From an uncultured Desulfocicer sp. (GTDB lineage Bacteria; Desulfobacterota; Desulfobacteria; Desulfobacterales; SURF-7), in contig CAYTGW010000002.1 in the NCBI GenBank assembly GCA_964437395.1, forward strand, positions 1-51,443: 51,443 nucleotides of DNA, read 5' to 3'. Positions within the stretch are counted from its first letter, which is position 1; every line of letters starts with the position of its first letter. Positions 13,632 through 42,713 of this stretch are shown here, in pieces. The position numbers and the translations under genes were made by a program. The notes under the pieces are model-generated. The model was not told the origin of the DNA. It made no database searches and saw only the letters and a program-made list of their open reading frames with translations.

Positions 13632-15191
13632 ATGCATAAAGATATAAAAACCAATCTCGGACAAAACATCAACGGCCATATTTTATTTGTGGATGATGAG
13701 GAGAACATTCTTGAAATTGCCGTCGAATTTTTTCAACACAAAGGGTATGATATTATTACAGCAAATAATGGTGTTGAAGCCCTGAATTTATTGAGTACAG
13801 AAAAAATAGTATGTTGTTTTACAGATATAAACATGCCTGAAATGGATGGCTTACAACTAGCAGAGGAAATCAGAAAAATTGATAATACAATTCCTGTTAT
13901 TGTCATGACCGGATATCCATCACTTGAAAACTCTATCCGAACCTTGAAAAATGGAGTTGTTGACTTTTTGATCAAGCCTGTAAACCTAAACCAGATGGAA
14001 GTATGTGTTCAACGCGTTCTCCGGGAAAGACAACTTTTCATTAAAAATATCCTTTTGTCCAAAGAAGTTGAGGGAAAAGAACGGCTTGAAAAACTCAATA
14101 AAGAACTCGTATACAAGCTTGAAGAGCTTCAAAATTTAAATAAAATCATGACAGACTTGTCGATGATAAACAATACAACAGATATCTTCAAGCTGATTGT
14201 TGAAATGACGATTGTACTTACAAAAGCAGATGAGTCAAAATTTTTTGTCATCAATGAGTCTGAAAATCTCCCCTTTGAAGTAAGTTCTTCCTTTTCCGAT
14301 TCATATCTCAAATTATTGTCCCAAAAACAGATGGAGATATCTCAGAAAGAAGGCAGCCGTTTTCAGCAGGTGATCATTGAGACCGTTGCTGATGAAATCC
14401 CGCTTCTTGTTTCTGAAAATAAAAATATTGATGCCGGTTTTGATGACCATCTTTCATTTATGATTGTTCCATTAAAAATACAGGAAAAGGTTTTTGGTGT
14501 TCTTACCGCTTCCATAAAAACAGGAAATAAGCGTTTTACGGAAAAAGAACTGTATTATCTGTCTTTTATGACGCAAAGAGCGGCATCTGCCATTGAGAAT
14601 CTTGCGTTGTATGAGCATATCAATCGTGGCTTGATGACGACTTTAAAAGCCTTTGTAAAAGCAATTGAGGCAAGAGACCCCTATACAAAGGAACATTCAA
14701 ACCGGGTAACGGAGATTGCTATTGCTATCGGAAAAAAAGTAGGTTGTAGTGATGAAGAAATTGACATTCTAAAAATTTCCGGTCCACTACATGACATTGG
14801 GAAAATTGGAATTCGTGATGAAATACTATTAAAACCCGGAAGACTCACAGAAGACGAATTTAAAAAAATTATGGAACACCCGGATATCGGGGCCGATATT
14901 ATCGGTCAGCTGGGAATGTGGGATGAACATCAAGAGATTATTCGTCATCATCATGAACGGTTTGACGGAACAGGATATCCCTCAAAATTAAAAAAAGAAG
15001 AAATCCCCCGTTTAGCACGAATCGTTACGGTTGCCGACTCATACGATGCAATGGCATCTGATCGTGCGTATCGGAAAAAAATGGACCCCGAAAAAATTTT
15101 GGCAATTCTTTCCGATTGCAGTGGCACACAATTTGATCCAGTATACGTAGATGCTTTCCTGGCCCTTTTCAAAGAGGGAAAGATAAATTGA
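13632..15191 (+). CDS. response regulator with REC-GAF-HD-GYP domains (c-di-GMP phosphodiesterase type)
   Basis: REC (LFVDDEE .. FTDINMPEMDG .. LIKP), a central GAF-like segment, and a C-terminal HD..HDIGK..HHERFDGTGYP HD-GYP signature. Confidence 0.9.
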   Translation: MHKDIKTNLGQNINGHILFVDDEENILEIAVEFFQHKGYDIITANNGVEALNLLSTEKIVCCFTDINMPEMDGLQLAEEIRKIDNTIPVIVMTGYPSLENSIRTLKNGVVDFLIKPVNLNQMEVCVQRVLRERQLFIKNILLSKEVEGKERLEKLNKELVYKLEELQNLNKIMTDLSMINNTTDIFKLIVEMTIVLTKADESKFFVINESENLPFEVSSSFSDSYLKLLSQKQMEISQKEGSRFQQVIIETVADEIPLLVSENKNIDAGFDDHLSFMIVPLKIQEKVFGVLTASIKTGNKRFTEKELYYLSFMTQRAASAIENLALYEHINRGLMTTLKAFVKAIEARDPYTKEHSNRVTEIAIAIGKKVGCSDEEIDILKISGPLHDIGKIGIRDEILLKPGRLTEDEFKKIMEHPDIGADIIGQLGMWDEHQEIIRHHHERFDGTGYPSKLKKEEIPRLARIVTVADSYDAMASDRAYRKKMDPEKILAILSDCSGTQFDPVYVDAFLALFKEGKIN

Positions 15192-15320
15192 TTTGAATAT
15201 TTACAGATTAAAATTCAAATGATATACTGATAATAATTAAATACTCATTGCCTGTCTTGCCAAATGAGCAACAACTATCAACATTAAGAATGTCATCTCT
15301 GTATCTATTGTAATTATCCT

Positions 15321-15953
15321 ATGACTATCAAGGATTGGCTGGAAAAAAGAAATAATGTTCGGGCAGCAATTTCTACAAAAGTCACGATAAGGCTGATTGA
15401 TAATGATATTGCTCATAATTTATTGCTTCCGAAAAAACCGGTTTCTCAGGCAACCAAAAGAGCTGCATCTGAAAAAGATTTATCAAAGAAAGGGAGTTCA
15501 AACAAAAACTCCTTGATAATGCCTGATTTTCCTTTTTCATCTGATAATACTATGAATCCGATGCTCTCTTATCTTGTTGATTCTATTTTTTTACTGAATG
15601 ACAAACTGGATAAGATTATTGATTTACTGGAAGACAACAAAGGAGAGACCCAAATAACAGTCAAGGAAACGGTTAATATCAGTGGTACGGGTATGAAAAT
15701 GATTTTGTATGATTCTGTTGAAATAGGACAAATTCTTAACATATCATTAAATTTACCTGGATTCCCATTAAGTGGTTTCAATACCTATGGTGAGGTTGTT
15801 CATAAAAGAGTAGTTCAAAAAAAGGACAAGCCTCTTTATGAGATCGGAGTTAAATTTATCAATATCCTTGAAAAAGAAAGAGATCTCCTGATTGCATACG
15901 CTTTTTCTCAAGAACGGCAAAAAATTAGACAACTGAAAAAGGATATCACATAA
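15321..15953 (+). CDS. PilZ-domain protein with a long insertion between the c-di-GMP motifs
   Basis: RNNVR (RxxxR) at residues 10-14 and NISGTG (D/NxSxxG) about 110 residues later, followed by a PilZ beta-barrel-like C-terminus. There is no obvious RBS. Confidence 0.6.
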   Translation: MTIKDWLEKRNNVRAAISTKVTIRLIDNDIAHNLLLPKKPVSQATKRAASEKDLSKKGSSNKNSLIMPDFPFSSDNTMNPMLSYLVDSIFLLNDKLDKIIDLLEDNKGETQITVKETVNISGTGMKMILYDSVEIGQILNISLNLPGFPLSGFNTYGEVVHKRVVQKKDKPLYEIGVKFINILEKERDLLIAYAFSQERQKIRQLKKDIT

Positions 15954-16084
15954 CAATCCTCTGCTCCTTTCAGGAACAGATTTATATGATATTTGCAAAA
16001 CATAATATCCAGCTAACGCAAATCTTACCAAGGCACAGTTCATTGTCATAGAATCGATACCGCATTATAGGGAGAAACATTGCC

Positions 16085-16435
16085 ATGACAGAGGCCGACA
16101 TTGATCGAAGAAAAAAACTCAGGGTAGATTTTAAAACCAATATCATTTTAAAAACAGATCAATCTGAAATCCATATTGAGGGCAGTTCAAAGGACTTGAG
16201 CCTCAAAGGAATATTTGTCCACACCCAGGAGGAGACTACCATTGGTACAAAATGCCAGATTGAAGTAAATCTAACAGGTATGACGGAACCGCTCTCATTG
16301 TACATGCAAGGAAAAATAATCCGAAAAGATCTCAATGGTATTGCCGTTGAATTTGACTCCATGGACCTGGATAGTTATACACATCTGAAAAACATGGTTC
16401 GATATAATACAGCAGATCCTGATGATGTTCATTAA
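16085..16435 (+). CDS. single-domain PilZ c-di-GMP receptor
   Basis: RRKKLR (RxxxR) and DLSLKG (DxSxxG) at canonical spacing. 116 aa. A GGGAGA RBS is present. Confidence 0.8.
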   Translation: MTEADIDRRKKLRVDFKTNIILKTDQSEIHIEGSSKDLSLKGIFVHTQEETTIGTKCQIEVNLTGMTEPLSLYMQGKIIRKDLNGIAVEFDSMDLDSYTHLKNMVRYNTADPDDVH

Positions 16436-16552
16436 AAAATAATAAGTACGTACTGATCCACTTCTTCTCGAAATATATCATTACACAACATAAAAAAATT
16501 TATTTCCATATATGTTCGATTAATAACCAATTGAATCCAGGGAGGCCAGATA

Positions 16553-17014
16553 ATGGACGCAAGTCTGATCAATCCATTTATTAATGCGACAATAAACGTC
16601 CTTGAAACAATGGCATTTATTAAGTGTAAAGCAGAAAAACCTTATCTGAAAAAGGATGATGTGGCAAAGGGTGACGTCACAGGCATTATTGGAATTACCG
16701 GAGAATCAAATGGAACAATTGCCGTAACCTTTGAAGAAGAAACCATTCTGAAAATTGTATCAAACATGTTTGGAGAAGAGATGAAAAAATTGAACAGCGA
16801 AGTTGCAGATGCGGTTGGTGAACTAACCAACATGATATCCGGACAGGCAAGAAGGGAGCTGGAAGAGAACGGAAAAGTTTTTGAGGCCGCCATTCCTTCT
16901 GTCGTCTCTGGGAAAAATCACCAGATTACACACTATACAGATGGCCCCAAAATTGCCATTCCATTTCTAACAGATGGAGGTCGGTTCACAATAGAAGTCT
17001 GCCTTGAAAATTAA
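16553..17014 (+). CDS. cheX: CheX-type CheY-P phosphatase (CheC/CheX family)
   Basis: INPFINATINVLETM N-terminus and the ELTNMISGQA (ExxN-type) motif typical of CheX. 153 aa. Located next to cheY. Confidence 0.78.
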   Translation: MDASLINPFINATINVLETMAFIKCKAEKPYLKKDDVAKGDVTGIIGITGESNGTIAVTFEEETILKIVSNMFGEEMKKLNSEVADAVGELTNMISGQARRELEENGKVFEAAIPSVVSGKNHQITHYTDGPKIAIPFLTDGGRFTIEVCLEN

Positions 17015-17174
17015 CGGTCGGAAAATCAGCTCCATGGCAAACAGTACTTTCAATAAAGGCACATAGGTTAAGTCAATAATATATGTTTTCCATATTTCCC
17101 ATAAGATGAATAATCAAAAAAAACAGCGCTGAGTATTTTTCTATATTCATCAGAATGAAAGGAGAAAAAACCAG

Positions 17175-17549
17175 ATGGATCGATCTATCAAGATTCTGAT
17201 TGTTGATGATTTCGCAACCATGCGTCGAATTCTCAAGAATATCTTAAAGCAACTGGGGTTTGTAAATATCACAGAGGCTGACGATGGTACCACAGCCCTT
17301 GAACAGCTGAAAAGCGGTCACTTTGACCTGATCATCTCAGATTGGAATATGCCGAAAATGACAGGGCTTGAACTTCTCAAAACCGTTCGCGGAATGAATG
17401 ATATAAAAAGCATACCGTTTTTAATGGTTACCGCAGAAGCTCAAAAACAGAATGTAATTAGCGCAGTGCAGGCGGGTGTATCCAATTACGTAGTCAAACC
17501 ATTTACCGCCGAACAGATATCGGATAAGTTAGAAAAAATATTGAAATGA
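17175..17549 (+). CDS. cheY: chemotaxis response regulator CheY
   Basis: Near-collinear with enterobacterial CheY: LIVDDFATMRR, ISDWNMPKMTGLELLK, MVTAEA, YVVKPFTA. 124 aa. Confidence 0.92.
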   Translation: MDRSIKILIVDDFATMRRILKNILKQLGFVNITEADDGTTALEQLKSGHFDLIISDWNMPKMTGLELLKTVRGMNDIKSIPFLMVTAEAQKQNVISAVQAGVSNYVVKPFTAEQISDKLEKILK

Positions 17550-18538
17550 TATCCAATGCTGGTAACAAAAATTTCAGGTCTCAGGCATTTATCGGAAACA
17601 ACCCTGAAATTCTGAATATATTGAATATCGTAGATAAAGTGGCAGATGAAGATGCGACCATTCTCATAACCGGTGAAAGTGGAACGGGAAAAGAGTTAAT
17701 CGCCAAAGAGGTTCATAAAAAAAGCAGCAGACGATCAGAACCACTCATCACCGTTAATTGCGGAGCGATCCCTTTTGAGCTGCTGGAAAGTGAACTATTC
17801 GGGCATGAAAAGGGAGCATTTACAGGGGCACATCGTGAACGAATCGGTCGTTTTGAATTGGCAGATAACGGAACGATTTTTCTAGATGAAATTGGTGATG
17901 TTAGTCCTGAAATACAAGTCAAACTGCTCCGGGTATTACAAGAACACAGCTTCGAACGAATCGGCAGTACCCAAACAATTTCTGTCAATATCAGAATCAT
18001 TGCAGCCACAAATAAAAATCTTGATCACGCCATTGCAGAAGGTAAGTTCCGTGAAGATCTTTTTTATCGATTAAGTGTGATACCAATCAAAATGCCTCCC
18101 CTTCGTGATCGAAAATCCGACATCCCGCTTTTAGTGAATCATTTTCTCGAAAAGCTTCAATCAATAAGGAATACTAAGGAAAAAAATTTTTCAAACGAGG
18201 CCTTGGAGGTGCTCATTCAGTACAACTGGCCGGGAAATATCAGAGAGCTTGAAAATTTAATTGAACGTCTCTCTGTTCTTGTGGATAAAAGCGTTTTCGA
18301 TGTATCGGACCTGCCTGAAAATTTTTTATACAAAAAACAAGAGGAATTTAAAAAATCCGTGTCTCGATTAAAAAAAGATATTGGATTCAATGATGCTGTT
18401 GAACAATACCAGCAGCACCTTATTCTACAGGCTCTCAAAAATACAGACGGAGTGAAATCAAAAGCTGCTGAATTGTTAAAAATCAATCGAACCACTCTGG
18501 TTGAAAAACTTAAAAAAATGAACATAAAACAACATTAG
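17546..18538 (+). CDS. sigma54-dependent transcriptional activator lacking a receiver or sensory domain
   Basis: The AAA+ domain begins about residue 15 (GESGTGKE Walker A, GAFTGA, FLDEIG Walker B). C-terminal Fis-type HTH. Its ATG overlaps the cheY stop (ATGA). Confidence 0.9.
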
Positions 18539-22905: not shown

Positions 22906-22964
22906 CCGTTTACCATAAACTTTTGACTATCAAGATTGATTGCTTTTCACATCAGGAGATGGCT

Positions 22965-23372
22965 ATGAATACAATATATCCTTTTGATCGAACGTATGAA
23001 CTGCTGGGAAAATCACTCGATATTTCGGCAAGAAGGCACAGCCTGATTACAGGTAACCTCGCCAACATGGATACCTTGGGATATCAACCCAAGGACTTGG
23101 ATTTTAAACAAACCCTCCAAACTGCAATGAAAAAGGGAAGTGGGAAGCTTCACGGGACTCACCCCAGTCATATGAAACATCGATCGGAAAAAATGATCTA
23201 TCAAGGAGAAACCCGAATCAATAGTGCTGATTCACATAATCCGGATTCCGTGAATATCGATACGGAAATGACAAATCTGATTTCAAACAACGGAATGTAT
23301 AAAACCAGTGTGGAAATGCTCTTACGGAAAATTGCGATTCTCCGGCAATCCATTACCGAAGGAGGTAGTTAA
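22965..23372 (+). CDS. flgB: flagellar basal-body rod protein FlgB
   Basis: NLANMDTLGYQPKDLDF motif, 135 aa. AGGAG lies 6 nt before ATG 22965. The ORF-track start at 22923 is unlikely. Confidence 0.9.
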   Translation: MNTIYPFDRTYELLGKSLDISARRHSLITGNLANMDTLGYQPKDLDFKQTLQTAMKKGSGKLHGTHPSHMKHRSEKMIYQGETRINSADSHNPDSVNIDTEMTNLISNNGMYKTSVEMLLRKIAILRQSITEGGS

Positions 23373-29102: not shown

Positions 29103-29552
29103 ATGAAAAAATTCCGATTTCGTCTTCAATCCTTTCTTGGTTATCGAAAACATCTGGAACAGGAAGCCAAGCAGGCTGTCTCAATAACACAAACCAAAAT
29201 GAATGATTGTAAAAATCGAATCGATGCATACGAAATGAATCAACAAAAAAGTATCACGGAATTATATGATAAAATGTCCACTGGAATTGAAGCAAAGCAG
29301 ATACCCATCTACACTTCCTATCATGATCGACTCAGTTTCATTCTGAAAAATGAAAATATGCAGTATGCTCAATTAAAAAATGAGTTCTCCCATAAACAGA
29401 AAATTCTAAAGCAACGATCCGTGGAAAAAAAAGCCCTGGAAAATTTACAGCAGCGTAAAAAAGAGGAATATTATAAAAAAATTTCCGATTCCCTTCAAAA
29501 GGAATCCGAAGATATGAATATCATACGGAAAATCAGGGATACCCATAAATGA
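29103..29552 (+). CDS. fliJ: flagellar export chaperone-like protein FliJ
   Basis: 149-aa all-helical coiled-coil protein with a FRFRLQSFLGYRKHLE start, in the canonical position after fliI. Confidence 0.75.
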   Translation: MKKFRFRLQSFLGYRKHLEQEAKQAVSITQTKMNDCKNRIDAYEMNQQKSITELYDKMSTGIEAKQIPIYTSYHDRLSFILKNENMQYAQLKNEFSHKQKILKQRSVEKKALENLQQRKKEEYYKKISDSLQKESEDMNIIRKIRDTHK

Positions 29553-30304
29553 AAAAATCTTTCCAGCCTTTTCTCAAACTGCTTTTAATCGGCCTTGTTG
29601 CAACAAAGATCACCGCTTCTTTTTGTTTACTTTCCGATTTTGGTTTTGACTCTGCGCTGTTTCATATTCAACAACTTGCCCATGCAGAGGATCAAAAACA
29701 TGAAGGGCAGAAAAAAACAGAGGAGCAGAAAAAAAATGGAAAACCAGAAGAAAAACCAGAGGACTCGAAAAAACCGGATGAACATAAACAAAATGAAAAA
29801 ATAGAAGAAAAACCTTCATCCGAAGCTACTGCCGCTATACCGGAAAAAGAAGATACGACTACTACAGAAACAAAAGTTATGCTGAAAAGCCTCGAAAAAA
29901 AACGCCTCTTTCTTCAACAGGAAGAAATCCGAATTGGGGAAGAGAGAAAACAGATAGAGGCTTTAAAAGAAGAAATGGAAGAAAACCTCCTGAACCTGTC
30001 GAAAGTCCAAAAACAAATTGAAGAAAAACTGTTATTGATTGAAAAAAAAGAAACTGAAAAAGAACGTCTAAAAAGAGAAGCCAAACAAAAAAAACTGAAA
30101 CAGCTCCTCAAGATATACACGAGCATGAAACCCAAAGATGTTGGTACAATTATTAATAAATTGGATTTTGAAGACGCGTTGACAATCTTCCTCATGATGA
30201 AAGGTGATCAGGCTGCTAAAATACTGACCTATGTAAATACTGAACTTGCTGTAAAAATCAGTGAACAACTCATTAATGAAAAAAATCGTGTCCAGCCAAA
30301 ATGA
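29549..30304 (+). CDS. MgtE-N/FlbB-type flagellar protein (Bacillus YlxF / spirochaete FlbB position)
   Basis: N-terminal TM, a K/E-rich coiled coil, and a C-terminal MKPKDVGTIINKLDFEDALTIFLMMKGDQAAKIL MgtE-intracellular-N-like motif. ATGA overlap with fliJ. Confidence 0.7.
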   Translation: MKKSFQPFLKLLLIGLVATKITASFCLLSDFGFDSALFHIQQLAHAEDQKHEGQKKTEEQKKNGKPEEKPEDSKKPDEHKQNEKIEEKPSSEATAAIPEKEDTTTTETKVMLKSLEKKRLFLQQEEIRIGEERKQIEALKEEMEENLLNLSKVQKQIEEKLLLIEKKETEKERLKREAKQKKLKQLLKIYTSMKPKDVGTIINKLDFEDALTIFLMMKGDQAAKILTYVNTELAVKISEQLINEKNRVQPK

Positions 30305-33102: not shown

Positions 33103-36100
33103 ATGTCTCTAACCAGCTCATTGTTCTCAGGAATCAGCGGAATGACCAACCTGGGAAATGCCATGCAAATCATCGGTGATAATATCGCAAATGTCAATAC
33201 AACCGCATTTAAAGGCAGTAATTATGTTTTTCAGGATCTCCTGAGTCAACAAATTGCAACTCAGTCGGGTACAGCCCAGGTAGGACGAGGTATGGCACTT
33301 GGAGAAGTTGCTTCTGTTTTCGAACAGGGATCGTTTGAGTCTACCGGAAATACAACTGATCTGGCCATTGGCGGCGATGGTTTTTTTGTTCTTCGGGAAT
33401 CCACATCAGAAGAGTTATATTATTCCAGAGCCGGAAATTTTAAATTCGACCGGGACGGAGTTTTAATTAACTCGGTGGGATATGTTGCTCAGGGTTGGGC
33501 GCTGGATGATGATGGCGATGAGGTCGGTTCCGTTACCGATATCAAGCTGGCCTCCTTTACCTCACCGCCCAAAATAAGTGAAAGTCTCACCATGATAACC
33601 AATCTGGATTCTGACGCACTCAGTCAATCTGTTGTTCTGGCAAATGCATGGGATGCGGAAGAAACAACTCCCATAGTCGGTTCCGCTTATAATTATCAAT
33701 CGGTTGTAAAGGTATATGATTCACTTGGAAGTACCCACGATATTACCATCTATTATGACAAACAATCCGAATCCAAATGGGAGTACATTGTCACCTGTAA
33801 TCCGGAAGAAGATAAAAGGGGACTGGTTCAGGAAACTTCCGCAAAAGGGCTCCTGGCAAAGGGGGAAATTACATTCTCGGACAGCAGTGGAACAATTTCC
33901 AACCTGACCATGAGGCAATTTACCGGCAGAATCGGAAATATTTCTGCCGACGGAGCCATCACAAATGAGACAACCAATTTTACCATCAACAATTATGATG
34001 CTCTGTCTCTGGATGGATATAATTTCAGTCTTGAATTCGATGGAACCAACTGGTCTTTTGAAGATTCTGCAGCACCCATTGGTGCATTAACTGCTTCCGA
34101 TCTTCCGACAAATTACCCGTTTGCCACTATTATAAGTGGTGATGCCAACGGTATTCAGATTAATCTGGACGGAGATACGGACAGAACAGCCGACCTTACC
34201 ATCTCATTTTCAACACCAGCCCAGGCCACTGATGCACTGACTTTTGATATTATCAGTCCGCAGAATATTCATATTCAGGATGTGATCAACACCCAATATA
34301 TTGGAGATACCGGAAACGAAAATACCCAGCTTGATATCAACCATCCGGAAGTTCTGACCACTGACTCCTCAGATTTGCGTATCAATTGGGATGCCAGTGA
34401 ACAGGACTGGTATTGGGCAATGCCTCTGCTTCAAAACGTTACAACTATGAATACAGCCAGTTTATCACCCGCTGCCCTGACCGGATCAGTCAATGTAACC
34501 AATGCTTCCGTCATGACCAGTTATTCTGAAGATACTACCGTATGGTTTGACAACAATACCGGTCTCTGGAATTTTATCTCTCCCTATGCCCGGGATTTAA
34601 CCAATCAGAGCTACACCGGAGGCATTACCGAAGCAAACACCTCCATTTTGGTAGCAGATCCTACAGTTTTGGAAAACCATTCCACCGGTATTACACTTGC
34701 CTGGGACAATATCGTGGGAATGACCAATCTTGCATACAGCAACACCAGTGGATCTAATGAAATCCTTGCAACCAATACAACTGTAACCGTTTCCCAGGAA
34801 GAAAACTTTACAAGGGATTCCAGCATTACCTATATTCTGGAATATGATGGAGTAGGAGATACCTGGGGTTGGGGAGCCGGTGGAGATCCGGTAGTGGATT
34901 ATTTGAGCAGACAAACTCCTACATGGGATTCGGTTTCCCAGCGTTTAAGTGTTGATCTTTCCGGTTCGGGAGCAGATTTCCTAGTCGACTTTTCTTTTGC
35001 CGGCGGCCTAACCGCAGCTTCTGACGGAGATACCATTTCCTTCCAAATTGATGCCGATGGCGCTTGGACCTGGGCCATGCCGACCTATAGTATTTCCAGT
35101 ACCACCGGTGGTGTTGTTTCGACCAACATAACTGGAAATATTTCTTCCTCTCTTACTGCACCTGCAGCTTACTATGATTCATCTTCGGATGTGGGCGGAC
35201 CTGAATATAATCTGGTTTTTACCAGTGCTACCAACACCTGGAGCTGGGATGCTGCCGGACACACTCCTGCCACAGGAGGTGCGGGAGCGACAACCGGTTC
35301 CTATGATTCTGAAACCTTTATCGTAAACAACGAAAATGAGGTTTCCATTGATCTTGACGCTGATGGTTTGGCCGATGTCACCTACACCTTTACGATCCCT
35401 TTAACCGCAGACGGCACCTTGAATTTTTCCATTGATGCAATCGGCAATCCTCCACCCGAATATTCTTCTGCGAGTATCTCCTCCACTTCAGGATCCGACA
35501 TATTGAGCATTGATATGACCGGAAACGGAACCTCGGATCTGGTGTTAAGCTTTCTCTCCCCCTTAAACTCCAACGGTACCATCACTTTTGATGTTGATAC
35601 CCATATTCCACCGTTCGAATACCCAAATGCCTCCATTGACAATGTTTCTTCGAATGCCAGTGCTCTCTATATGGACCTGAATGGAGACAGCATCAATGAT
35701 ATCAATTTTTCATTTCTTGCTGCAGGAATACCCCAGTCCCTGACTGGTAACGGAACATTTGTCTTTGATATCGATCCCAGGGTTCCGCCGACTGAATACT
35801 CCTATGCGACCATCTCCGGTGATACGGATGAAGTTATGATTGACTTGAACAATGATGGTGAAGATGACATCACTTTCACTTTTCTCACACCTTTACCAAC
35901 TGGAGCATCCGCACAGGATAGTGCCATCACATTTGATATTGAGGGAACAACTGCATGGACTGCCGTCCCTACGAATTCAAACGGGTATTACGAATTTATG
36001 GTGGATTTCCAGGGAGGCGAAATCGGTGTGACCGAGAACGACCTGGAGTTCAACATTGGTACCAAGGATGATGGAACCGGTCAATTTATCAATGATTCTC

Positions 36101-36522
36101 TCACAACCACTCAATATGCACGGTCATCTACAACGACATTCCAATCCGCCGATGGATATGGAGCAGGTGATCTTGAAGGAGTTGATGTGGATACGGACGG
36201 CTCCATGACCGGCATCTATTCAAATGGTCAACTTATACCGCTTTACCGCATCGCTCTCGCCCATTTTCTGAATGAGCATGGACTATCCAAACTGGGAGGC
36301 AACCTGTATCGTGAAACCAGGGACAGTGGAACCGCCATCACCAATAAACCAGGCACAAACGGTCTTGGAAGCATTACACCCAACTCTCTAGAACAGTCTA
36401 ATGTAGATATTGCCAACGAATTCGTAAAGATGATTACTACCCAGCGGGCTTTCCAGGCTAACTCGAAAATTGTGACCACTGTCGATGCCATGCTTGGTGA
36501 AGTGATCAATATGAAACGGTAA
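33103..36522 (+). CDS. flgE: flagellar hook protein FlgE, giant form (1139 aa)
   Basis: Canonical N-terminus (LFSGISGMTNLGNAMQIIGDNIANVNTTAFKG) and C-terminus (SLEQSNVDIANEFVKMITTQRAFQANSKIV). It follows flgD. About 700 aa of extra sequence lie between the conserved blocks. Confidence 0.9.
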   Translation: MSLTSSLFSGISGMTNLGNAMQIIGDNIANVNTTAFKGSNYVFQDLLSQQIATQSGTAQVGRGMALGEVASVFEQGSFESTGNTTDLAIGGDGFFVLRESTSEELYYSRAGNFKFDRDGVLINSVGYVAQGWALDDDGDEVGSVTDIKLASFTSPPKISESLTMITNLDSDALSQSVVLANAWDAEETTPIVGSAYNYQSVVKVYDSLGSTHDITIYYDKQSESKWEYIVTCNPEEDKRGLVQETSAKGLLAKGEITFSDSSGTISNLTMRQFTGRIGNISADGAITNETTNFTINNYDALSLDGYNFSLEFDGTNWSFEDSAAPIGALTASDLPTNYPFATIISGDANGIQINLDGDTDRTADLTISFSTPAQATDALTFDIISPQNIHIQDVINTQYIGDTGNENTQLDINHPEVLTTDSSDLRINWDASEQDWYWAMPLLQNVTTMNTASLSPAALTGSVNVTNASVMTSYSEDTTVWFDNNTGLWNFISPYARDLTNQSYTGGITEANTSILVADPTVLENHSTGITLAWDNIVGMTNLAYSNTSGSNEILATNTTVTVSQEENFTRDSSITYILEYDGVGDTWGWGAGGDPVVDYLSRQTPTWDSVSQRLSVDLSGSGADFLVDFSFAGGLTAASDGDTISFQIDADGAWTWAMPTYSISSTTGGVVSTNITGNISSSLTAPAAYYDSSSDVGGPEYNLVFTSATNTWSWDAAGHTPATGGAGATTGSYDSETFIVNNENEVSIDLDADGLADVTYTFTIPLTADGTLNFSIDAIGNPPPEYSSASISSTSGSDILSIDMTGNGTSDLVLSFLSPLNSNGTITFDVDTHIPPFEYPNASIDNVSSNASALYMDLNGDSINDINFSFLAAGIPQSLTGNGTFVFDIDPRVPPTEYSYATISGDTDEVMIDLNNDGEDDITFTFLTPLPTGASAQDSAITFDIEGTTAWTAVPTNSNGYYEFMVDFQGGEIGVTENDLEFNIGTKDDGTGQFINDSLTTTQYARSSTTTFQSADGYGAGDLEGVDVDTDGSMTGIYSNGQLIPLYRIALAHFLNEHGLSKLGGNLYRETRDSGTAITNKPGTNGLGSITPNSLEQSNVDIANEFVKMITTQRAFQANSKIVTTVDAMLGEVINMKR
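35341..35946 (+). repeat. four tandem ~53-56-aa coding modules inside flgE
   Basis: The modules begin at 35341, ~35500, ~35662 and ~35831. Pattern: (I/M)DL(D/N)xDGxxD(V/I)xF(T/S)F..(8-12)..G(T/A)(I/L)xFx(I/V)D....PPxEY.xA(S/T)I. More diverged copies occur near 34150-34258 and 34942-35057. Confidence 0.85.
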
Positions 36523-37311: not shown

Positions 37312-38547
37312 TTATGTAATTATAACGGTGATTGTGGTTACATCCGCTGCACCGTTTTTATCCGTTACCGTAAGTGTGATCAGATGTTCTCCAACAGAGA
37401 GAATTGATATACTGAAACTTGTTCCCGTGCCGATGAATCCATCCAGATCCGATGTCCATACAAGGGAAGCTCCATATAAATTGCCATCCTCGGCGTCAAT
37501 ACCGGTTCCGGTGAAAATCACTAAGGAACCGCTGGCATATGAAGATGCGGTGGCTGGATTGGTAATGGTTGCGGTTGGAACGGTATTCTCCACGGTAACA
37601 ATAACTGAATCGGTTCCGGTCGCACCATTGCTATCGGTTGCAACCAGGGTAATGGTATGGTCACCACTGGAAAGATAGGCTACGGTTGATGAATTACCAA
37701 TCCCAATCCTTCCGTCTTTATTGGAAATCCATTCCAGCGCTTCACCATCAAGAGAACCATCTTCCGTATCGGTTCCGGTACCGTTAAATGTAATGGACTC
37801 CCCTTCAAAAATCGACACGTCTGCAGATGGAACAATTATGGTTGCCGTGGGAGCTGTATTGCCGATTGTGATTATGACAGATGCGACACCCGTGGTATCC
37901 GCACTGTCAATGGCCTGAAGCTGAATGGTATGACTGCCTACTGACAGGGTGTTGGTCGTGAAGGCGTTTCCAATTCCAATCTGGCCATCCAGATTGGAAT
38001 TCCAGATCAATGAAAAATCTTTGAGAGATCCGTCTTCCGAATCGCTTCCTGAACCACTGAAGGTTATGTAATCTCCTTGGCTGAAACTGCTCGCAGTAAC
38101 CGGAGAAGCAATCGTAGCCGTCGGAATCGTGTTGCCTATCGGGTTCACAATTACATTTATGGCCGTACTTCCGGTTCCACCACTGGTATCCGTCACAGTG
38201 AGAGTGATCACATGTGTACCGTTTGATAAGGAAACATTCCGCATGGACGTACCGATGCCCAGCATGCCATCCTTGCTCGAATGCCATTCCAAGGCTCCTC
38301 CGGTCAGTGTTCCGTTTTCTGAATCGGTTCCGGACCCGGAAAAAGTAACTTTATCATTTTCACTGAATGCTGCATTATCTTCCGGAGTCCTGATCGTTGC
38401 TGTGGGTAATGTGTTGAGTCCCTGTGGTGTAATGGGTTCCTCCATTTCATCCCCACTCGTACCGATAATGCTGACCAGTCCGATTATGATTGCTGACCCC
38501 AACAGGAAACTACGAAAAACAGTATAGATAATTTTTTTGATTTTCAT
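37312..38547 (-). CDS. secreted/anchored protein made of four tandem Ig-like (Big/PKD-like) domains
   Basis: N-terminal hydrophobic segment (FRSFLLGSAIIIGLVSIIG), then four 88-94-aa repeats. Each repeat has PTATI...P......F..G..(I/V)TF(S/N/T)G(S/T)G.D.E(D/N)G.L....L.W.S..DG.(I/L)G.G.......LS.G.H.I.L...D..G. It lies 58 nt downstream of the FlgP-like gene on the same strand. Confidence 0.8.
   Translation of the reverse strand: MKIKKIIYTVFRSFLLGSAIIIGLVSIIGTSGDEMEEPITPQGLNTLPTATIRTPEDNAAFSENDKVTFSGSGTDSENGTLTGGALEWHSSKDGMLGIGTSMRNVSLSNGTHVITLTVTDTSGGTGSTAINVIVNPIGNTIPTATIASPVTASSFSQGDYITFSGSGSDSEDGSLKDFSLIWNSNLDGQIGIGNAFTTNTLSVGSHTIQLQAIDSADTTGVASVIITIGNTAPTATIIVPSADVSIFEGESITFNGTGTDTEDGSLDGEALEWISNKDGRIGIGNSSTVAYLSSGDHTITLVATDSNGATGTDSVIVTVENTVPTATITNPATASSYASGSLVIFTGTGIDAEDGNLYGASLVWTSDLDGFIGTGTSFSISILSVGEHLITLTVTDKNGAADVTTITVIIT
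37315..38409 (-). repeat. 4 x ~273-282-nt tandem coding repeats (Ig-like domains)
   Basis: PTATI starts at residues 48, 142, 233 and 324 of the 411-aa protein, giving periods of 94, 91 and 91 aa. The several long antisense ORFs across this interval are shadows of the repeat. Confidence 0.85.
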
Positions 38548-38605
38548 GATTTTGAAAACTCCTGTGTCTGTGTTTTAAGCGCACAAAAATCAAGATGAAG
38601 AATAG

Positions 38606-39277
38606 CTACTCTTCGGCAAGGGCTGACCCTGCCAGAGATCCTGCAGTTGCGCCAATGGCCATGGCACCGGGAGTTCCGCCCAAAGCATCTAGAGTGACGG
38701 AGCTCTGACCGAGTGCCGTTCCAGTAGCTGATCCTGCTGCTGCTCCGGCAGCACCACCACCCAGTGATCCCAAAAGGCTTCTTGAAAAAAATGAACCATC
38801 GTAAAACTTGAACTCTCGAGGCGCCATATATATTTTTACGGTTGCATTTGCCACTCCGTCTTTAAAGCTGACAAAATTCACCTGTGCTCCGCGGAGATAA
38901 GCATTTGTTTCACTGGTTACCTGGTCAACAGAAATGTTGTTATAACCCGCAGCAGAATAGGCATTGATGATCATCCCGGCCACCCGCTCTGAAATTTTTC
39001 GGTACCCGTCGATTACAGCAGCTCTTTCGGCCATCAATTTTTTCTGCTGAGGTGACCCGGTTTCAGGCTCGATTCCCTGTCCGCGGACACTGATCAAAAT
39101 TTTTTGCGAAGCTTCTTCCGGTTCCAGTCCTGGAATCAGATTTAACGCACTGTTGTTCATCGTGGTTTGATATTTTATAATTTCATGGCTGGTTGAACAT
39201 CCAGTAAAAAGCAGGAGTAAGGATACCATAAAGACTGGCATCCATTTACGTTTTGATACACCACATTCCATTTGCAT
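38606..39277 (-). CDS. flgP: FlgP/LPP20-family lipoprotein with a C-terminal Gly/Ala-rich (glycine-zipper-like) tail
   Basis: Signal peptide plus lipobox (KRKWMPVFMVSLLLLFTGC). LPP20-type core (GQG....Q.KLMAERAAVIDGYRKISERVAGMII......V..V.......LRGAQV......DG.A.ATVKI). AAGGAGA lies 7 nt before ATG 39277. A sigma54 promoter lies upstream. Confidence 0.7.
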   Translation of the reverse strand: MQMECGVSKRKWMPVFMVSLLLLFTGCSTSHEIIKYQTTMNNSALNLIPGLEPEEASQKILISVRGQGIEPETGSPQQKKLMAERAAVIDGYRKISERVAGMIINAYSAAGYNNISVDQVTSETNAYLRGAQVNFVSFKDGVANATVKIYMAPREFKFYDGSFFSRSLLGSLGGGAAGAAAGSATGTALGQSSVTLDALGGTPGAMAIGATAGSLAGSALAEE

Positions 39278-39766: not shown

Positions 39767-40531
39767 ATGGATATTGCAACACTGCTCGGAACCATCTCCG
39801 CATTTGGTCTGGTAATCCTGGCTATTTATATGGGTGGTGGTATCTTACTATTCATTGATGCACCTTCACTCATGATCGTTGTTGGAGGAACATTCGGAGC
39901 AACCATGATCAACTATCCGATCCGGGATGTCCTCGGTGCTTTAAGAGTGGTAAAAAACGTCTTTTTCACAAACCCCCTGCCCATTGGAGAGATTGCCGGA
40001 AAATTTGTAACCTTTGCCGGAAAAGCCAGACGTGAAGGAATATTGTCACTGGAATCCGATCTCCAATCCATCCCGGATGATTTCTTAAAAAAAGGATTAC
40101 AGCTTTCTGTTGATGGAATTGAACCACAATCCATACAGGAAATTATGGAAACCGAAATCAATTTTTTACATGAGCGGCATCAGCTTGGAGCCGAAATATT
40201 TACAACCATGGGGTCATTTGCACCTGCTCTTGGAATGGTTGGCACCCTGATCGGACTGGTTCAGATGCTTCAATCCATGGATGATCCAAATTCCATCGGG
40301 CCAGCCATGGCTGTTGCCTTATTAACCACTTTCTACGGATCAATACTTGCAAATCTTGTATTTATGCCGGTTGCCGGCAAATTGCGAACCCGAAGCAAAG
40401 AAGAAATTCTGATAAAGGCAATGATTGTTCAAGGCGTTATCGCTCTTTCCCGTGGAGACAATCCACGACTGCTTGAACAAAAACTACTTTCATTCTTAGC
40501 ACCCAAATTCCGGGAAAGTGCATTTAAATAA
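39767..40531 (+). CDS. motA: flagellar stator protein MotA
   Basis: Four-TM MotA/TolQ/ExbB topology with the C-terminal motif GPAMAVALLTTFYG..LAN. 254 aa. Confidence 0.93.
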   Translation: MDIATLLGTISAFGLVILAIYMGGGILLFIDAPSLMIVVGGTFGATMINYPIRDVLGALRVVKNVFFTNPLPIGEIAGKFVTFAGKARREGILSLESDLQSIPDDFLKKGLQLSVDGIEPQSIQEIMETEINFLHERHQLGAEIFTTMGSFAPALGMVGTLIGLVQMLQSMDDPNSIGPAMAVALLTTFYGSILANLVFMPVAGKLRTRSKEEILIKAMIVQGVIALSRGDNPRLLEQKLLSFLAPKFRESAFK

Positions 40532-40586
40532 ACGTAAATCCTTCACAATGAATATTGTGACGCTATCCCGGACAGGAAGTCAATAC

Positions 40587-41342
40587 ATGAAATCGGAAAA
40601 AAAAATGAAAAATGCCCATTTTTTTTCAAATGGCAAGATGCTGCAGTTGATGACGATTTCTCTTTTTATCATTCTGCTTGTTTTTTTCATTCTGCTGAAT
40701 TCAATTGCTGTTAGAAATGAACAAAAAGTGGTTGCTGCCATTGGATCACTTCTCGGGAGTTTTGGTCAAAAAATGGGTGGAGATTCGGATATTGACGGAA
40801 CCGGTGAAAAAAATCCAATCCTCCCCGTAAACACTTACACCGGAGGAATCGACTTCTCCGACATCCTTGTTAACGACCCGATGCTTTTGCAGCAAATCAA
40901 AATTCTTACTGACCCGAGAGGCACTCTTGTCCGGATAACGGCAGACACCTTGTTTACCAATTTTGAAACAACGATCAACCTTTCCGGGCACCGGTTTCTG
41001 GATGGAATCACCAGGACAATACAGAACAATCGTTATCCAGTCGAGATTTCAAGCCATACCGACAACATTCCAATCATCAAAAACGAGGAAAAAACGAATC
41101 AGGAAGTCTCTGCCTTGCGTGCACTTCATATTCTTCAATATGTAACGGAAAGCAAAAACATTTCAGTTGATCGGATCACTGCTTTTGGCTGGGGAGAATA
41201 TCAGCCCGCTTATTCCAATCGAACCCTGGAAACCAGAAAACTGAACAACAGAATCGATATCCTTTTTGTTCACAAACCAAAGAAGCAAAAGCCAAAAAGC
41301 GGATTTATTTTTAAAGATTTCTTTTTCCGGTCATTTGAGTAA
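40587..41342 (+). CDS. MotB-like OmpA-domain protein lacking the conserved TM aspartate
   Basis: A single TM that aligns with the MotB channel helix but reads LQLMT where MotB has (A/G)D(F/L)(M/V)T. The OmpA-like C-terminus is intact (SHTDN, NQEVSALRA, NNRIDILF). The start is uncertain (40518, 40548, 40587 or 40605). Confidence 0.72.
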   Translation: MKSEKKMKNAHFFSNGKMLQLMTISLFIILLVFFILLNSIAVRNEQKVVAAIGSLLGSFGQKMGGDSDIDGTGEKNPILPVNTYTGGIDFSDILVNDPMLLQQIKILTDPRGTLVRITADTLFTNFETTINLSGHRFLDGITRTIQNNRYPVEISSHTDNIPIIKNEEKTNQEVSALRALHILQYVTESKNISVDRITAFGWGEYQPAYSNRTLETRKLNNRIDILFVHKPKKQKPKSGFIFKDFFFRSFE

Positions 41343-41357
41343 GGAATTTCAATAATC

Positions 41358-42104
41358 ATGCCATCATCGAAAACACCAAAAAGAATTGAATCTTCAAAAA
41401 TAAATTCGGATTTATGGATGCTCACCTTTGGTGACCTGGTTATGCTTCTTCTGACCTTTTTTGTTTTGCTTTTGAGCATGAAATCTTTGGACACAAAAGA
41501 TCTGAGAGAATTATTTCCAAATCCTTCTCTCTGGGGCGGTCCCCTGAAATATTCGGAAAACGGGTTAACCGGAAAAACCACGGATTTTTATGGTGATAAT
41601 AAAAACTCAATTTTTGTGGAAAACAAAGATGCCCTGAAACAAATCTTTATGATGATGAAAGAGATTCAACCATCTCTTACGGAAAAAGATGTGGTAAATC
41701 ATTTTAAAAAATCGATTCTCATCGAGGATGATCCCAAAGGAGTCGTGATATCATTCCAGACAGAACAATTATTCGAGCCAGGTGAAACGACCATCAATCC
41801 ATCCAAAATCGATTTCCTTAATGCTGCCGGAGAATTGTTGAAAAAAACAACGAACAACATTCTGATAATGGGACATGCAAGCAGCATTCAACTCCCAAAA
41901 CCTGCATTGAAATCAAGTTGGGATCTGACCCTGTATCGGGCACTTAACGTTCTGTATTATTTAACCGCAAATTTTGAATTATTGGAAAACAGACTCGCTG
42001 TGGGAGGATTTGGAGATAAAAAACCAAAATTTCCTGTTACGGAAGTAGAGAATCAAAAAAAAAATGACCGGATTGAATTTATTCTCATGAAAGCAACAGA
42101 ATGA
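41358..42104 (+). CDS. motB: flagellar stator protein MotB (canonical TM Asp present)
   Basis: WMLTFGDLVMLLLTFFVLLLS channel helix with the conserved Asp. OmpA-like C-terminus (GHAS.., SSWDLTLYRA, NDRIEFIL). 248 aa. Confidence 0.85.
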   Translation: MPSSKTPKRIESSKINSDLWMLTFGDLVMLLLTFFVLLLSMKSLDTKDLRELFPNPSLWGGPLKYSENGLTGKTTDFYGDNKNSIFVENKDALKQIFMMMKEIQPSLTEKDVVNHFKKSILIEDDPKGVVISFQTEQLFEPGETTINPSKIDFLNAAGELLKKTTNNILIMGHASSIQLPKPALKSSWDLTLYRALNVLYYLTANFELLENRLAVGGFGDKKPKFPVTEVENQKKNDRIEFILMKATE

Positions 42105-42203: not shown

Positions 42204-42713
42204 ATGGCTGAAGAAGAAATCAAGATCGGAGAGAAATCGAAAAAAAGAAGGATGCCCCCGCTAAAATGGATCATTGTCGGGATTGTCGGGGTGGCAATCC
42301 TGTCCGGAGGAATACTCGGCTATGTTTTACTGAAAAAGCCGACACACGAAACTCCCCATAAAACAACTACCTCTGAAAGTGTCAGCAAGGTCGATACTTC
42401 TGGAAACGATCTGTCTCAAACTTTTCCATTGGAAAAGTTTGTAGTAAACCTGAATGATCCGGGAGGAAAACAATATCTGCACATAACAATTGAACTGGAG
42501 TCAACGGTCAATGGTTTTGCAGAAGAGCTCAACTCAAAAATGCCTCAAATCAAGGATGCGATCCTGATCATCCTCAGCAGCAAATCACTTTCAGATGTCC
42601 AGGGCATGGATGGAAAAATTACATTGCGGAAAGAACTGATTACCGAAATCAATAAAGTTTTGAATACAACCAAAATCCGCAATCTGTATTTTACTGAATT
42701 TGTCATCCAATAA
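42204..42713 (+). CDS. fliL: flagellar basal body-associated protein FliL
   Basis: N-terminal TM, F.VNLND..GKQYL.I.IELE, and a C-terminal NLYFTEFVIQ. 169 aa. A GGAGGA RBS is present. Confidence 0.88.
   Translation: MAEEEIKIGEKSKKRRMPPLKWIIVGIVGVAILSGGILGYVLLKKPTHETPHKTTTSESVSKVDTSGNDLSQTFPLEKFVVNLNDPGGKQYLHITIELESTVNGFAEELNSKMPQIKDAILIILSSKSLSDVQGMDGKITLRKELITEINKVLNTTKIRNLYFTEFVIQ

What the first reader, a model, noticed from the sequence alone, without database searches (positions are those of the whole stretch)
40518..42104. motA followed by two MotB paralogues, the first lacking the essential channel aspartate
Seen in sequence: the ORF directly after motA has a MotB-type single TM helix and a well-conserved OmpA-like peptidoglycan-binding domain (SHTDN, NQEVSALRA, NNRIDILF). 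At the position of the universally conserved proton-accepting Asp (E. coli MotB Asp32, context A-D-F-M-T) it reads L-Q-L-M-T. The next ORF has the canonical W-M-L-T-F-G-D-L-V-M helix, but its PG-binding motifs are more divergent (GHAS instead of GHTD). Established knowledge: this Asp is indispensable for ion-coupled torque generation in MotB/PomB. Inference: the Asp-less paralogue cannot conduct ions as a homodimer. It may act as a heterodimer partner, a stator anchor/scaffold, or a regulator or brake of stator incorporation.
Basis: partly seen in the sequence, partly recalled or inferred. Interest (0 to 1): 0.65.

Follow-up and report, generated by a model that had tools for sequence, protein, structure and literature searches.

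The report
Aspartate-less MotB paralogue inside stator operon
Between the flagellar stator genes motA and motB sits a second, strongly conserved MotB-like gene that has lost the ion-binding aspartate; the same gene triplet occurs in many sulfate-reducer and Nitrospirae genomes, which suggests a stator type that has not been described.

Summary
motA (39767-40531) is followed by two MotB-type genes, then fliL, fliM, fliN, fliO, fliP, fliQ and fliR.

**First gene (MotB′).** Its likely start is ATG 40587, giving 251 aa. It has a MotB-type membrane helix with no acidic residue and an intact OmpA-like peptidoglycan-binding domain.

**Second gene (MotB).** 41358-42104 has the canonical W-M-L-T-F-G-D helix.

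**Evidence that MotB′ is functional and stator-linked.**
- motA-motB′-motB-fliL-fliM is kept in all 80 related genome loci where the contig allows, and in four much more divergent metagenome loci.
- MotB′ is under purifying selection, like MotB.
- Its membrane helix is about as constrained as the MotB channel helix.
- 75 of the best 150 cluster representatives from a full-database search lack the Asp.

**Lineage-specific detail.** The weak peptidoglycan-binding motif of the second gene (GHAS) occurs only in this small clade.

**Best reading (inferred, about 0.4).** MotB′ occupies one of the two central positions in the MotA pentamer beside MotB. That would give an asymmetric stator with a single ion-accepting carboxylate.

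**Rivals.** A non-conducting MotA5MotB′2 unit, or a peripheral anchor.

I found no description of such a paralogue in the searched literature or in Pfam/NCBIfam, so I rate it a new variant of a known kind.

The parts
39767..40531 (+). motA/pomA-like stator A subunit (254 aa)
   Evidence: PF01618 scores 113 bits. The NCBIfam best hit is PomA at 278 bits, below its 341-bit cut-off. BLASTP against E. coli MotA keeps the equivalents of R90, E98, P173, T209 and P222.
40587..41342 (+). motB′: Asp-less MotB paralogue (251 aa; the longest ORF starts at GTG 40518)
   Evidence: OmpA domain PF00691 scores 48.8 bits, while MotB_plug scores only 18.1 bits, below its cut-off. There are 87 homologues. hhalign against the MotB family gives probability 100% and E 2.9e-48 over 226 columns.
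40641..40712 (+). MotB′ membrane helix L-Q-L-M-T-I-S-L-F-I-I-L-L-V-F-F-I-L-L-N-S-I-A-V. Ser25 (40659-40661) lies opposite the MotB channel Asp. Asn38 is nearly invariant.
   Evidence: Register. Column counts. Entropy is 0.54 bits in the loci set and 1.11 bits in the unbiased representatives, against 2.49 bits for the rest of the protein.
40953..41246 (+). MotB′ OmpA-like peptidoglycan-binding domain with intact SHTDN / NQEVSALRA / NNRIDI motifs
   Evidence: Pfam. The AF2 model has pLDDT 82-93 in this region. Foldseek top hits are the periplasmic domains of MotS, DVU_2228, H. pylori MotB and PomB, at E 4e-13 to 2e-11.
41292..41339 (+). MotB′ family-specific aromatic C-terminal tail K-P-K-S-G-F-I-F-K-D-F-F-F-R-S-F-E
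   Evidence: Conserved as KPxGxFxFKxFxFxxF in A1 and. AF2 gives a low-confidence beta hairpin at residues 238-249. Its function is unknown.
41358..42104 (+). motB: canonical stator B subunit (248 aa). Asp26 is at 41433-41435. GHAS at 41871-41882 replaces GHTD.
   Evidence: MotB_plug scores 47.5 bits and OmpA 47.2 bits. Alignment to 6YSF and PomB includes the membrane helix. Asp is present in 75 of 75 orthologues, and GHTD in 70 of 75.
42204..42713 (+). fliL, the stator-associated protein immediately downstream
   Evidence: PF03748 scores 93 bits. It follows motB in the related loci.

Best explanation
The gene after motA encodes MotB′, an old and selectively maintained paralogue of MotB. It has kept the MotB membrane helix and the peptidoglycan-binding domain, but Ser (sometimes Ala, Gly or Asn) replaces the ion-accepting Asp.

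**Shown here.** It is a real, conserved gene. It always lies between a single motA and an Asp-bearing motB at the head of the fliL-fliM-fliN-fliO-fliP-fliQ-fliR genes. Its membrane helix is homologous to, and in register with, the MotB channel helix, and is about as constrained.

**Inferred.**
- MotB′ inserts into the MotA pentamer next to one copy of MotB, giving MotA5-MotB-MotB′.
- Both periplasmic domains anchor the unit to peptidoglycan.
- Only the MotB chain binds the coupling ion.
- The stator would therefore be intrinsically asymmetric, with half the ion-binding sites of a classical 5:2 unit.
For: - **Homology and register of the helix.** Searches agree. The FF pair, the leucines and the Asp at the start of the plug region (MotB′ position 44, Asp in 73 of 79, Asn in the window; MotB Asp45) line up. 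Only the channel Asp is replaced.
- **No carboxylate.** 74 of the 75 Asp-less cluster representatives have no acidic residue from -6 to +16 around the position. The exception has a Glu at -5.
- **Synteny.** motA-motB′-motB-fliL-fliM is found in 80 loci from Desulfobacterales, Desulfatiglandales, Nitrospirae and Bacteriovoracaceae. It is also found in four divergent metagenome loci where the first B has Gly, Ser, Asn or Ser and the second B always has Asp.
- **One transcription unit is likely.**
  - No terminator-like site lies on the + strand between motA and fliM.
  - The spacer between motB′ and motB is 15 nt in the window.
  - In three of the four metagenome loci the two genes overlap by 1 to 23 nt.
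- **Purifying selection.** dN/dS is 0.16-0.27 for motB′ and 0.14-0.32 for motB.
- **Helix constraint.** Entropy of the membrane helix is 0.54 bits (MotB′) and 0.57 bits (MotB). The single-pass helix of FliL in the same operons has 1.92 bits. In the unbiased set it is 1.11 against 2.49 bits for the rest of MotB′, and 0.98 against 2.10 bits for Asp-type MotB. Conservation on all faces is what a helix enclosed by protein shows.
- **Intact MotB-type periplasmic domain.**
Against: - No physical evidence of any complex exists, and no multimer prediction could be run here.
- Asp32 substitutions in E. coli MotB are dominant-negative (established knowledge). The 5:2 model uses the two Asp residues alternately, in 36-degree steps (bioRxiv 10.1101/2020.05.12.089201). 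A one-Asp heterodimer would therefore be expected to stall unless the mechanism is modified.
- Gene adjacency fits the rival arrangements equally well.
- The helix-conservation figures from the 80 loci are inflated, because those loci were retrieved with peptide patterns inside that helix. The unbiased set still required an FF anchor for classification.
- The NJ tree has no support values.
Confidence: 0.4

Rival explanations
1. MotB′ forms its own homodimer inside MotA pentamers (MotA5MotB′2). These units cannot conduct ions. They would bind peptidoglycan and the rotor as placeholders, brakes or a clutch, competing with the active MotA5MotB2 units.
For: The evidence that the helix fits the MotA pore is the same as for the best explanation. 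The peptidoglycan-binding motifs are intact. A dimer without a carboxylate cannot carry the coupling ion (established knowledge of MotB Asp32).
Against: motB′ appears to be co-transcribed from the same unit as motA and motB, and lies between them, in every locus. That would make inactive competitors at all times. No regulatory domain was detected on MotB′. The arrangement is very old and universal in these clades, which fits a structural subunit better than a conditional brake.
Confidence: 0.2
2. MotB′ is not in the MotA pore. It is a membrane-anchored, peptidoglycan-bound accessory that sits beside the stator or in a periplasmic ring, functionally like MotY/T-ring or FliL. It would recruit or stabilise stator units, possibly reaching further outward with its aromatic C-terminal tail.
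For: It has an OmpA-like domain, as MotY does. A family-specific conserved C-terminal tail, KPxGxFxFKxFxFxxF, suggests an extra binding partner. In this clade the peptidoglycan-binding motif of MotB itself is weakened to GHAS and NDR.
Against: The helix is homologous to the MotB channel helix and conserved on all faces. This differs from the peripheral single-pass helix of FliL in the same operons, at 1.92 bits. No signal peptide or MotY_N domain was found, and no other Pfam domain. The tail is absent from the Nitrospirae-type Asp-less subfamily, which keeps the same synteny. The GHAS change is clade-specific.
Confidence: 0.2
3. MotB′ still conducts or gates ions in a different way. For example, its conserved polar residues (Thr23, Ser25, Asn38, Ser39) could form part of a water or Na+ path together with MotA.
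For: Asn38 is nearly invariant and Ser25 is kept in 74 of 79 sequences.
Against: Ser is replaced by Ala or Gly in more than 20 cluster representatives, so the side chain at that position is not essential. No carboxylate-free member of the MotB/ExbD/TolR family is known to translocate ions (established knowledge).
Confidence: 0.05
4. MotB′ is a decaying duplicate of motB without function.
For: Loss of the essential Asp is what a dead copy would show.
Against: dN/dS is 0.16-0.27, equal to motB. The reading frame is intact in 78 loci. The family spans at least 75 clusters at 50% identity. The helix is the most conserved part of the protein.
Confidence: 0.02

Closest known systems
Classical MotA5MotB2 / PomA5PomB2 flagellar stator unit (E. 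coli, C. sporogenes 6YSF, Vibrio 8BRI)
   Same: It has one motA gene. The B-type subunits have an N-terminal membrane helix, a plug-like segment, a linker and an OmpA-like peptidoglycan-binding domain. ORF3 is an ordinary member.
   Different: A second B-type gene lies between motA and motB, and its helix has Ser where the ion-binding Asp should be.
Aquifex aeolicus motA-motB1-motB2 operon (PMC4525482)
   Same: One motA is followed by two motB genes in one operon. The two B proteins differ mainly in the periplasmic region.
   Different: In Aquifex the N-terminal and membrane regions of the two MotB proteins are 97% identical, and each supports rotation as a chimera, so both are ion-competent. 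Here the first paralogue has lost the Asp, and its helix has diverged at about half of its positions.
AglR-AglQ/AglS gliding motor of Myxococcus, and paired TPH-vWA genes next to tolQ-like genes (PMC9389320, PMC12204202)
   Same: One pentamer-forming A-type subunit is encoded with two different B-type (TolR/MotB-like) partners. A heterodimeric axle has been proposed for these systems but not shown.
   Different: Those systems are not flagellar. For the TPH-vWA pairs, the paper reports that both partners keep the conserved Asp.
MotY (T-ring) and other OmpA-like stator accessories
   Same: An OmpA-like peptidoglycan-binding domain associated with the stator without carrying ions.
   Different: MotY is a secreted periplasmic protein with its own N-terminal domain and no MotB-type membrane helix. 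MotB′ is a full-length MotB homologue.

Membership tests
MotB/PomB stator B subunit | Gene adjacent to and downstream of motA on the same strand | tested here: met
   Both ORF2 and ORF3 meet this. It is conserved in 80 + 4 loci.
MotB/PomB stator B subunit | Single N-terminal membrane helix homologous to the MotB channel helix | tested here: met
   hhalign of MotB′ against MotB gives probability 100% and aligns the helices in register. HMMER against 6YSF starts at the FFILL segment.
MotB/PomB stator B subunit | Conserved ion-accepting Asp in that helix (E. coli Asp32) | tested here: not met
   For MotB′ the position is Ser25, and residues 17-43 contain no Asp or Glu. The family has Ser 74, Ala 4, Cys 1. 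For ORF3 the feature is met: Asp26, in 75 of 75 orthologues.
MotB/PomB stator B subunit | Pfam MotB_plug (PF13677) above the gathering score | tested here: not met
   MotB′ scores 18.1 bits against a cut-off of 24, and only model positions 27-58 match. ORF3 scores 47.5 bits. Some divergent MotB′ relatives do carry a recorded PF13677 hit.
MotB/PomB stator B subunit | C-terminal OmpA-like peptidoglycan-binding domain with the GHTD ... R ... NRR signature | tested here: met
   MotB′ scores 48.8 bits for PF00691 and has SHTDN, LRA and NNR. The fold matches MotS, MotB and PomB. ORF3 has the domain (47.2 bits), but its signature reads GHAS and NDR.
MotB/PomB stator B subunit | Assembles as the central dimer of a MotA pentamer | not testable with these tools
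   Only monomer prediction was available. Indirect support comes from helix conservation.
NCBIfam MotB/MotD/MotS/PomB equivalogs | Score above the curated cut-off of any equivalog model | tested here: not met
   The best hit for MotB′ is MotD at 78 bits (cut-off 283). The best hit for ORF3 is PRK08944 at 103 bits (cut-off 259). No curated family covers MotB′.
Aquifex-type motA-motB1-motB2 | Two motB genes after one motA | tested here: met
   The operon is described in PMC4525482.
Aquifex-type motA-motB1-motB2 | Both B subunits share a near-identical, Asp-bearing membrane region | tested here: not met
   The MotB′ and MotB helices differ at about half of their positions, and MotB′ lacks the Asp.
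MotY-type periplasmic accessory | Secreted protein with a MotY_N domain and no MotB-type helix | tested here: not met
   No such Pfam hit was found. The N-terminus is a MotB-type helix.
TolA/TonB-type transducers | Membrane helix with the SHLS motif, including the essential His | tested here: not met
   The MotB′ helix contains no His. The motif definition is from PMC12204202.

The most novel reading that the evidence does not exclude
Many Desulfobacterota, Nitrospirae and related uncultivated lineages drive their flagella with an obligately asymmetric stator, MotA5-MotB-MotB′. Only one of the two central helices carries the ion-binding carboxylate. The stepping cycle, ions per revolution and torque per unit would then differ from the alternating two-site 5:2 mechanism.
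Probability: 0.3. Interest if true: 0.85.

Novelty: new variant of a known kind. Interest (0 to 1): 0.62.

Why it matters
The current model of all 5:2 ion-driven rotary motors (MotAB, PomAB, ExbBD, TolQR) has two identical central helices that take turns binding the coupling ion.

A naturally occurring B-subunit paralogue without the carboxylate, encoded inside the stator operon and conserved across deep lineages, gives one of two things:
- a natural one-site motor, which would test whether alternation is obligatory and how many ions a step needs;
- a built-in inactive stator unit or anchor, which would be a new way of regulating or stabilising stators.

It also matters for annotation. These proteins are named 'MotB', 'OmpA family protein' or 'hypothetical' in public records. 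No curated Pfam or NCBIfam model tells them apart from true MotB.

Tried and rejected
Rejected. Three alignments put Ser25 there.
2. **Complementary degeneration.** The idea was that MotB′ keeps peptidoglycan binding and loses the Asp, while MotB keeps the Asp and loses peptidoglycan binding. It is true for the window and its 4-5 closest relatives only. 70 of 75 MotB orthologues keep GHTD and 70 of 75 keep NRR. Rejected as a family feature.
3. **An acidic residue elsewhere in the helix.** None is found. The only nearby conserved acidic pair is consensus Asp44-Glu45 (Asn44-Glu45 in the window) after the helix. Position 44 aligns with MotB Asp45 at the start of the plug region, which the Asp-bearing MotB orthologues and representatives also have.
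4. **Apparent N-terminally truncated MotB in L010/L011.** Resolved as a 304-aa MotB with a longer linker and a normal WMATFADL helix.
5. **Literature.** Six full-text searches and five papers read found no description of an Asp-less MotB paralogue. Only the Aquifex two-motB operon and the AglQ/AglS and TPH-vWA pairs are related.
6. **Taxon names for divergent representatives.** Almost no names were returned.
7. **Helix conservation from the 80 loci.** Recognised as biased by the retrieval patterns and recomputed on HMMER representatives.
8. **Multimer structure prediction.** Not possible with the tools, which accept monomers only and no fusions.
9. **Promoter scan.** The number of sigma-70-like sites equals the shuffled expectation, so it is not informative.
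Full report
**What is in the window.** The + strand from about 23 kb to the end of the window is one large flagellar cluster.
- Upstream part: rod genes, fliF, fliG, fliH, fliI, fliJ, fliK, flgD and a 1139-aa flgE.
- Two minus-strand genes then interrupt the cluster.
- Downstream part: motA (39767-40531), ORF2 (40518/40587-41342), ORF3 (41358-42104), fliL, fliM, fliN, fliO, fliP, fliQ, fliR, flhB, flhA and flhF.
- motA is ordinary. PF01618 scores 113 bits, and the equivalents of E. coli R90, E98, P173, T209 and P222 are present.
- The closest genome in the species collection is a Desulfosudis oleivorans MAG, with 91-97% amino-acid identity over these genes.

**Checking the observation.**
- ORF2 has an OmpA domain above the Pfam cut-off, with the quoted SHTDN, NQEVSALRA and NNRIDILF motifs. 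Its MotB_plug match is sub-threshold and covers the second half of the helix and the segment after it.
- ORF3 has both domains above cut-off, the helix W-M-L-T-F-G-D-L-V-M, and GHAS in place of GHTD.
- The likely start of ORF2 is ATG 40587. It has AGGAAG 8 nt upstream, and most homologues start there. I number MotB′ from that Met.

**Which residue replaces the Asp.**
- HMMER aligns MotB′ residues 28-39 (IILLVFFILLNS) with residues 28-39 of C. sporogenes MotB (TLLLTFFILLYS). Ungapped extension puts MotB′ Ser25 on C. sporogenes Asp25.
- Profile-profile alignment of 79 MotB′ against 75 partner MotB sequences gives the same register. Probability is 100% and E is 2.9e-48.
- A MAFFT alignment that includes E. 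coli MotB, taken from NC_000913, agrees: Asp32 = MotB Asp26 = MotB′ Ser25.
- Either way, the helix and its borders (residues 17-43) have no acidic residue.

**Conservation elsewhere.**
- A word-indexed search gave 87 homologues. They come from Desulfobacterales MAGs, Desulfatiferula and Tectomicrobia, down to 29% identity. All have the helix motif M-T-[IV]-S-L-F-I-I-L-L-A-F-F-I-L-L-N-S-I-A.
- A scan of one genome per species returned 111 relatives. In the 80 loci kept, motA lies upstream and an Asp-bearing motB, fliL and fliM lie downstream, wherever the contig reaches.
- The taxa include Desulfobacterales, Desulfatiglandales, two Nitrospirae MAGs, a Bacteriovoracaceae MAG and the cultured Desulfatibacillum alkenivorans DSM 16219.
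- A filter-free HMMER search of 1.84 billion cluster representatives gave 1403 hits at E ≤ 1e-30. Of the best 150:
  - 75 lack the Asp (52 Ser, 20 Ala, 2 Gly, 1 Asn);
  - 27 have the Asp;
  - 48 could not be classified, mostly fragments and multidomain proteins.
- Four of the most divergent Asp-less representatives were looked up on their contigs. Each lies in flgD-flgE-(flbD)-motA-B′-B-fliL-fliM-fliN-fliO-fliP, and the second B always has F-[SN]-D-[LM].
- An unsupported NJ tree puts most Asp-less sequences in one block, separate from Asp-type MotB. A small second group with Gly, Asn or Ser sits elsewhere.

**Is MotB′ functional?**
- dN/dS against five relatives is 0.16-0.27 for motB′, 0.14-0.32 for motB and 0.06-0.10 for motA.
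- The membrane helix is the most conserved part of the protein. Mean column entropy is 0.54 bits, against 2.04 bits for the rest. MotB is almost identical (0.57 against 2.07 bits).
- The single-pass helix of FliL from the same operons is no more conserved than the rest of FliL (1.92 against 1.91 bits).
- The 80 loci were retrieved with peptide patterns from this very helix, so I repeated the measure on the HMMER representatives. The result is 1.11 against 2.49 bits for Asp-less proteins (n = 74) and 0.98 against 2.10 bits for Asp-type proteins (n = 27).
- That classification required the FF pair, so those two columns are uninformative.
- The conclusion stands in weaker form: the MotB′ helix is constrained about as much as a bona fide channel helix.

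**Structure.**
- An AF2 monomer model has mean pLDDT 73.5. It gives a long N-terminal helix, a disordered linker (residues 51-80) and a confident OmpA-like domain.
- The best structural matches of that domain are the periplasmic domains of B. subtilis MotS, D. vulgaris DVU_2228, H. pylori MotB and Vibrio PomB.
- The family-specific C-terminal tail (KPxGxFxFKxFxFxxF) is modelled as a low-confidence beta hairpin.

**The second paralogue.**
- ORF3 is a normal MotB.
- Its GHAS and NDR deviations occur only in the window's own small clade (columns 174/175 and 237). The idea of family-wide complementary subfunctionalisation is therefore rejected.

**Mechanism.**
- The following are shown:
  - MotB′ is homologous to MotB along its whole length.
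  - The carboxylate has been lost.
  - The peptidoglycan-binding signature is retained.
  - MotB′ always occurs with one motA and one Asp-bearing motB.
  - It is under purifying selection, and its helix is strongly constrained.
- Inferred, at about 0.4: MotB′ occupies one of the two central positions of the MotA pentamer beside MotB.
- The published 5:2 model uses the two Asp residues alternately, each ion binding giving a 36-degree step. A one-Asp unit would therefore need a modified cycle.
- Asp32 mutants of E. coli MotB are dominant-negative (established knowledge). This is the main argument against the heterodimer.
- Rivals:
  - a non-conducting MotA5MotB′2 placeholder or brake (0.2);
  - a peripheral anchor or scaffold (0.2), disfavoured by the all-face conservation of the helix;
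  - a carboxylate-free conduction mode (0.05), disfavoured by the Ala and Gly variants;
  - a dead duplicate (0.02).

**Comparison with what is known.**
- The nearest described arrangement is the Aquifex aeolicus motA-motB1-motB2 operon. There the two membrane regions are 97% identical, and both proteins work as chimeras.
- AglR with AglQ and AglS, and the paired TPH-vWA genes next to tolQ-like genes, are other cases of one A-type subunit with two B-type partners. Heterodimers have been proposed for them but not shown.
- No paper in the searched library describes an Asp-less MotB paralogue.
- Neither Pfam nor NCBIfam has a model for it.
- MotB′ fails the defining Asp test for MotB membership, yet it is clearly derived from MotB and linked to the stator.

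**Verdict.**
- It is a new variant of a known kind.
- Interest is moderate to high, because it offers a natural test of the alternating two-site model of 5:2 motors.

Noticed in passing
window 41292-41339; alignment A1 columns ~283-300: The MotB′ family carries a conserved aromatic C-terminal tail, KPxGxFxF(K/R)xFxFxxF. Some members end exactly on Phe (P0078, P0081, P0099), which resembles an outer-membrane-protein beta-signal. AF2 gives a low-confidence beta hairpin. The tail is absent from the Nitrospirae-type Asp-less subfamily.
   Followed up: partly
window 41871-41882 and 42066-42074 (ORF3 residues 172-175 and 237-239): The window's canonical MotB has GHAS instead of GHTD and NDR instead of NRR in its peptidoglycan-binding signature. 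Only 4-5 of 75 orthologues share this, so peptidoglycan binding by MotB may be weakened in this clade alone.
   Followed up: yes
window 33103-36522: flgE encodes a 1139-aa hook protein. The rod/hook domains sit at both ends, and several hundred residues in between have no Pfam assignment. flgE in L082, L084 and L086 encodes about 420-507 aa.
   Followed up: no
window 37312-39277 (minus strand): Two minus-strand genes interrupt the flagellar cluster between flgE and motA. One is a PKD/Ig-repeat protein (411 aa). The other is a 223-aa lipoprotein-like ORF with no Pfam hit. The second is kept upstream of motA in L001-L005 and L008.
   Followed up: partly
L082, L085 (proteins P0159, P0212); also P0161, P0176, P0192: A second, more MotB-like group of 'first B' proteins keeps the W-x-x-x-[YF] start of the helix but has Gly, Asn or Ser at the Asp position. 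In the NJ tree it sits apart from the main Asp-less block. The Asp may therefore have been lost more than once.
   Followed up: partly
window 13632-18538: Genes of cyclic-di-GMP and chemotaxis type lie just upstream of the flagellar regulators. They are a response regulator with GAF and HD_5 domains, a PilZ protein, CheX, a single-domain response regulator and sigma-54 activators.
   Followed up: no
window 29549-30304 and 22923-23372: Two ORFs inside the flagellar cluster have no Pfam hit: one of 251 aa between fliJ and fliK, and one of 149 aa before the rod gene.
   Followed up: no
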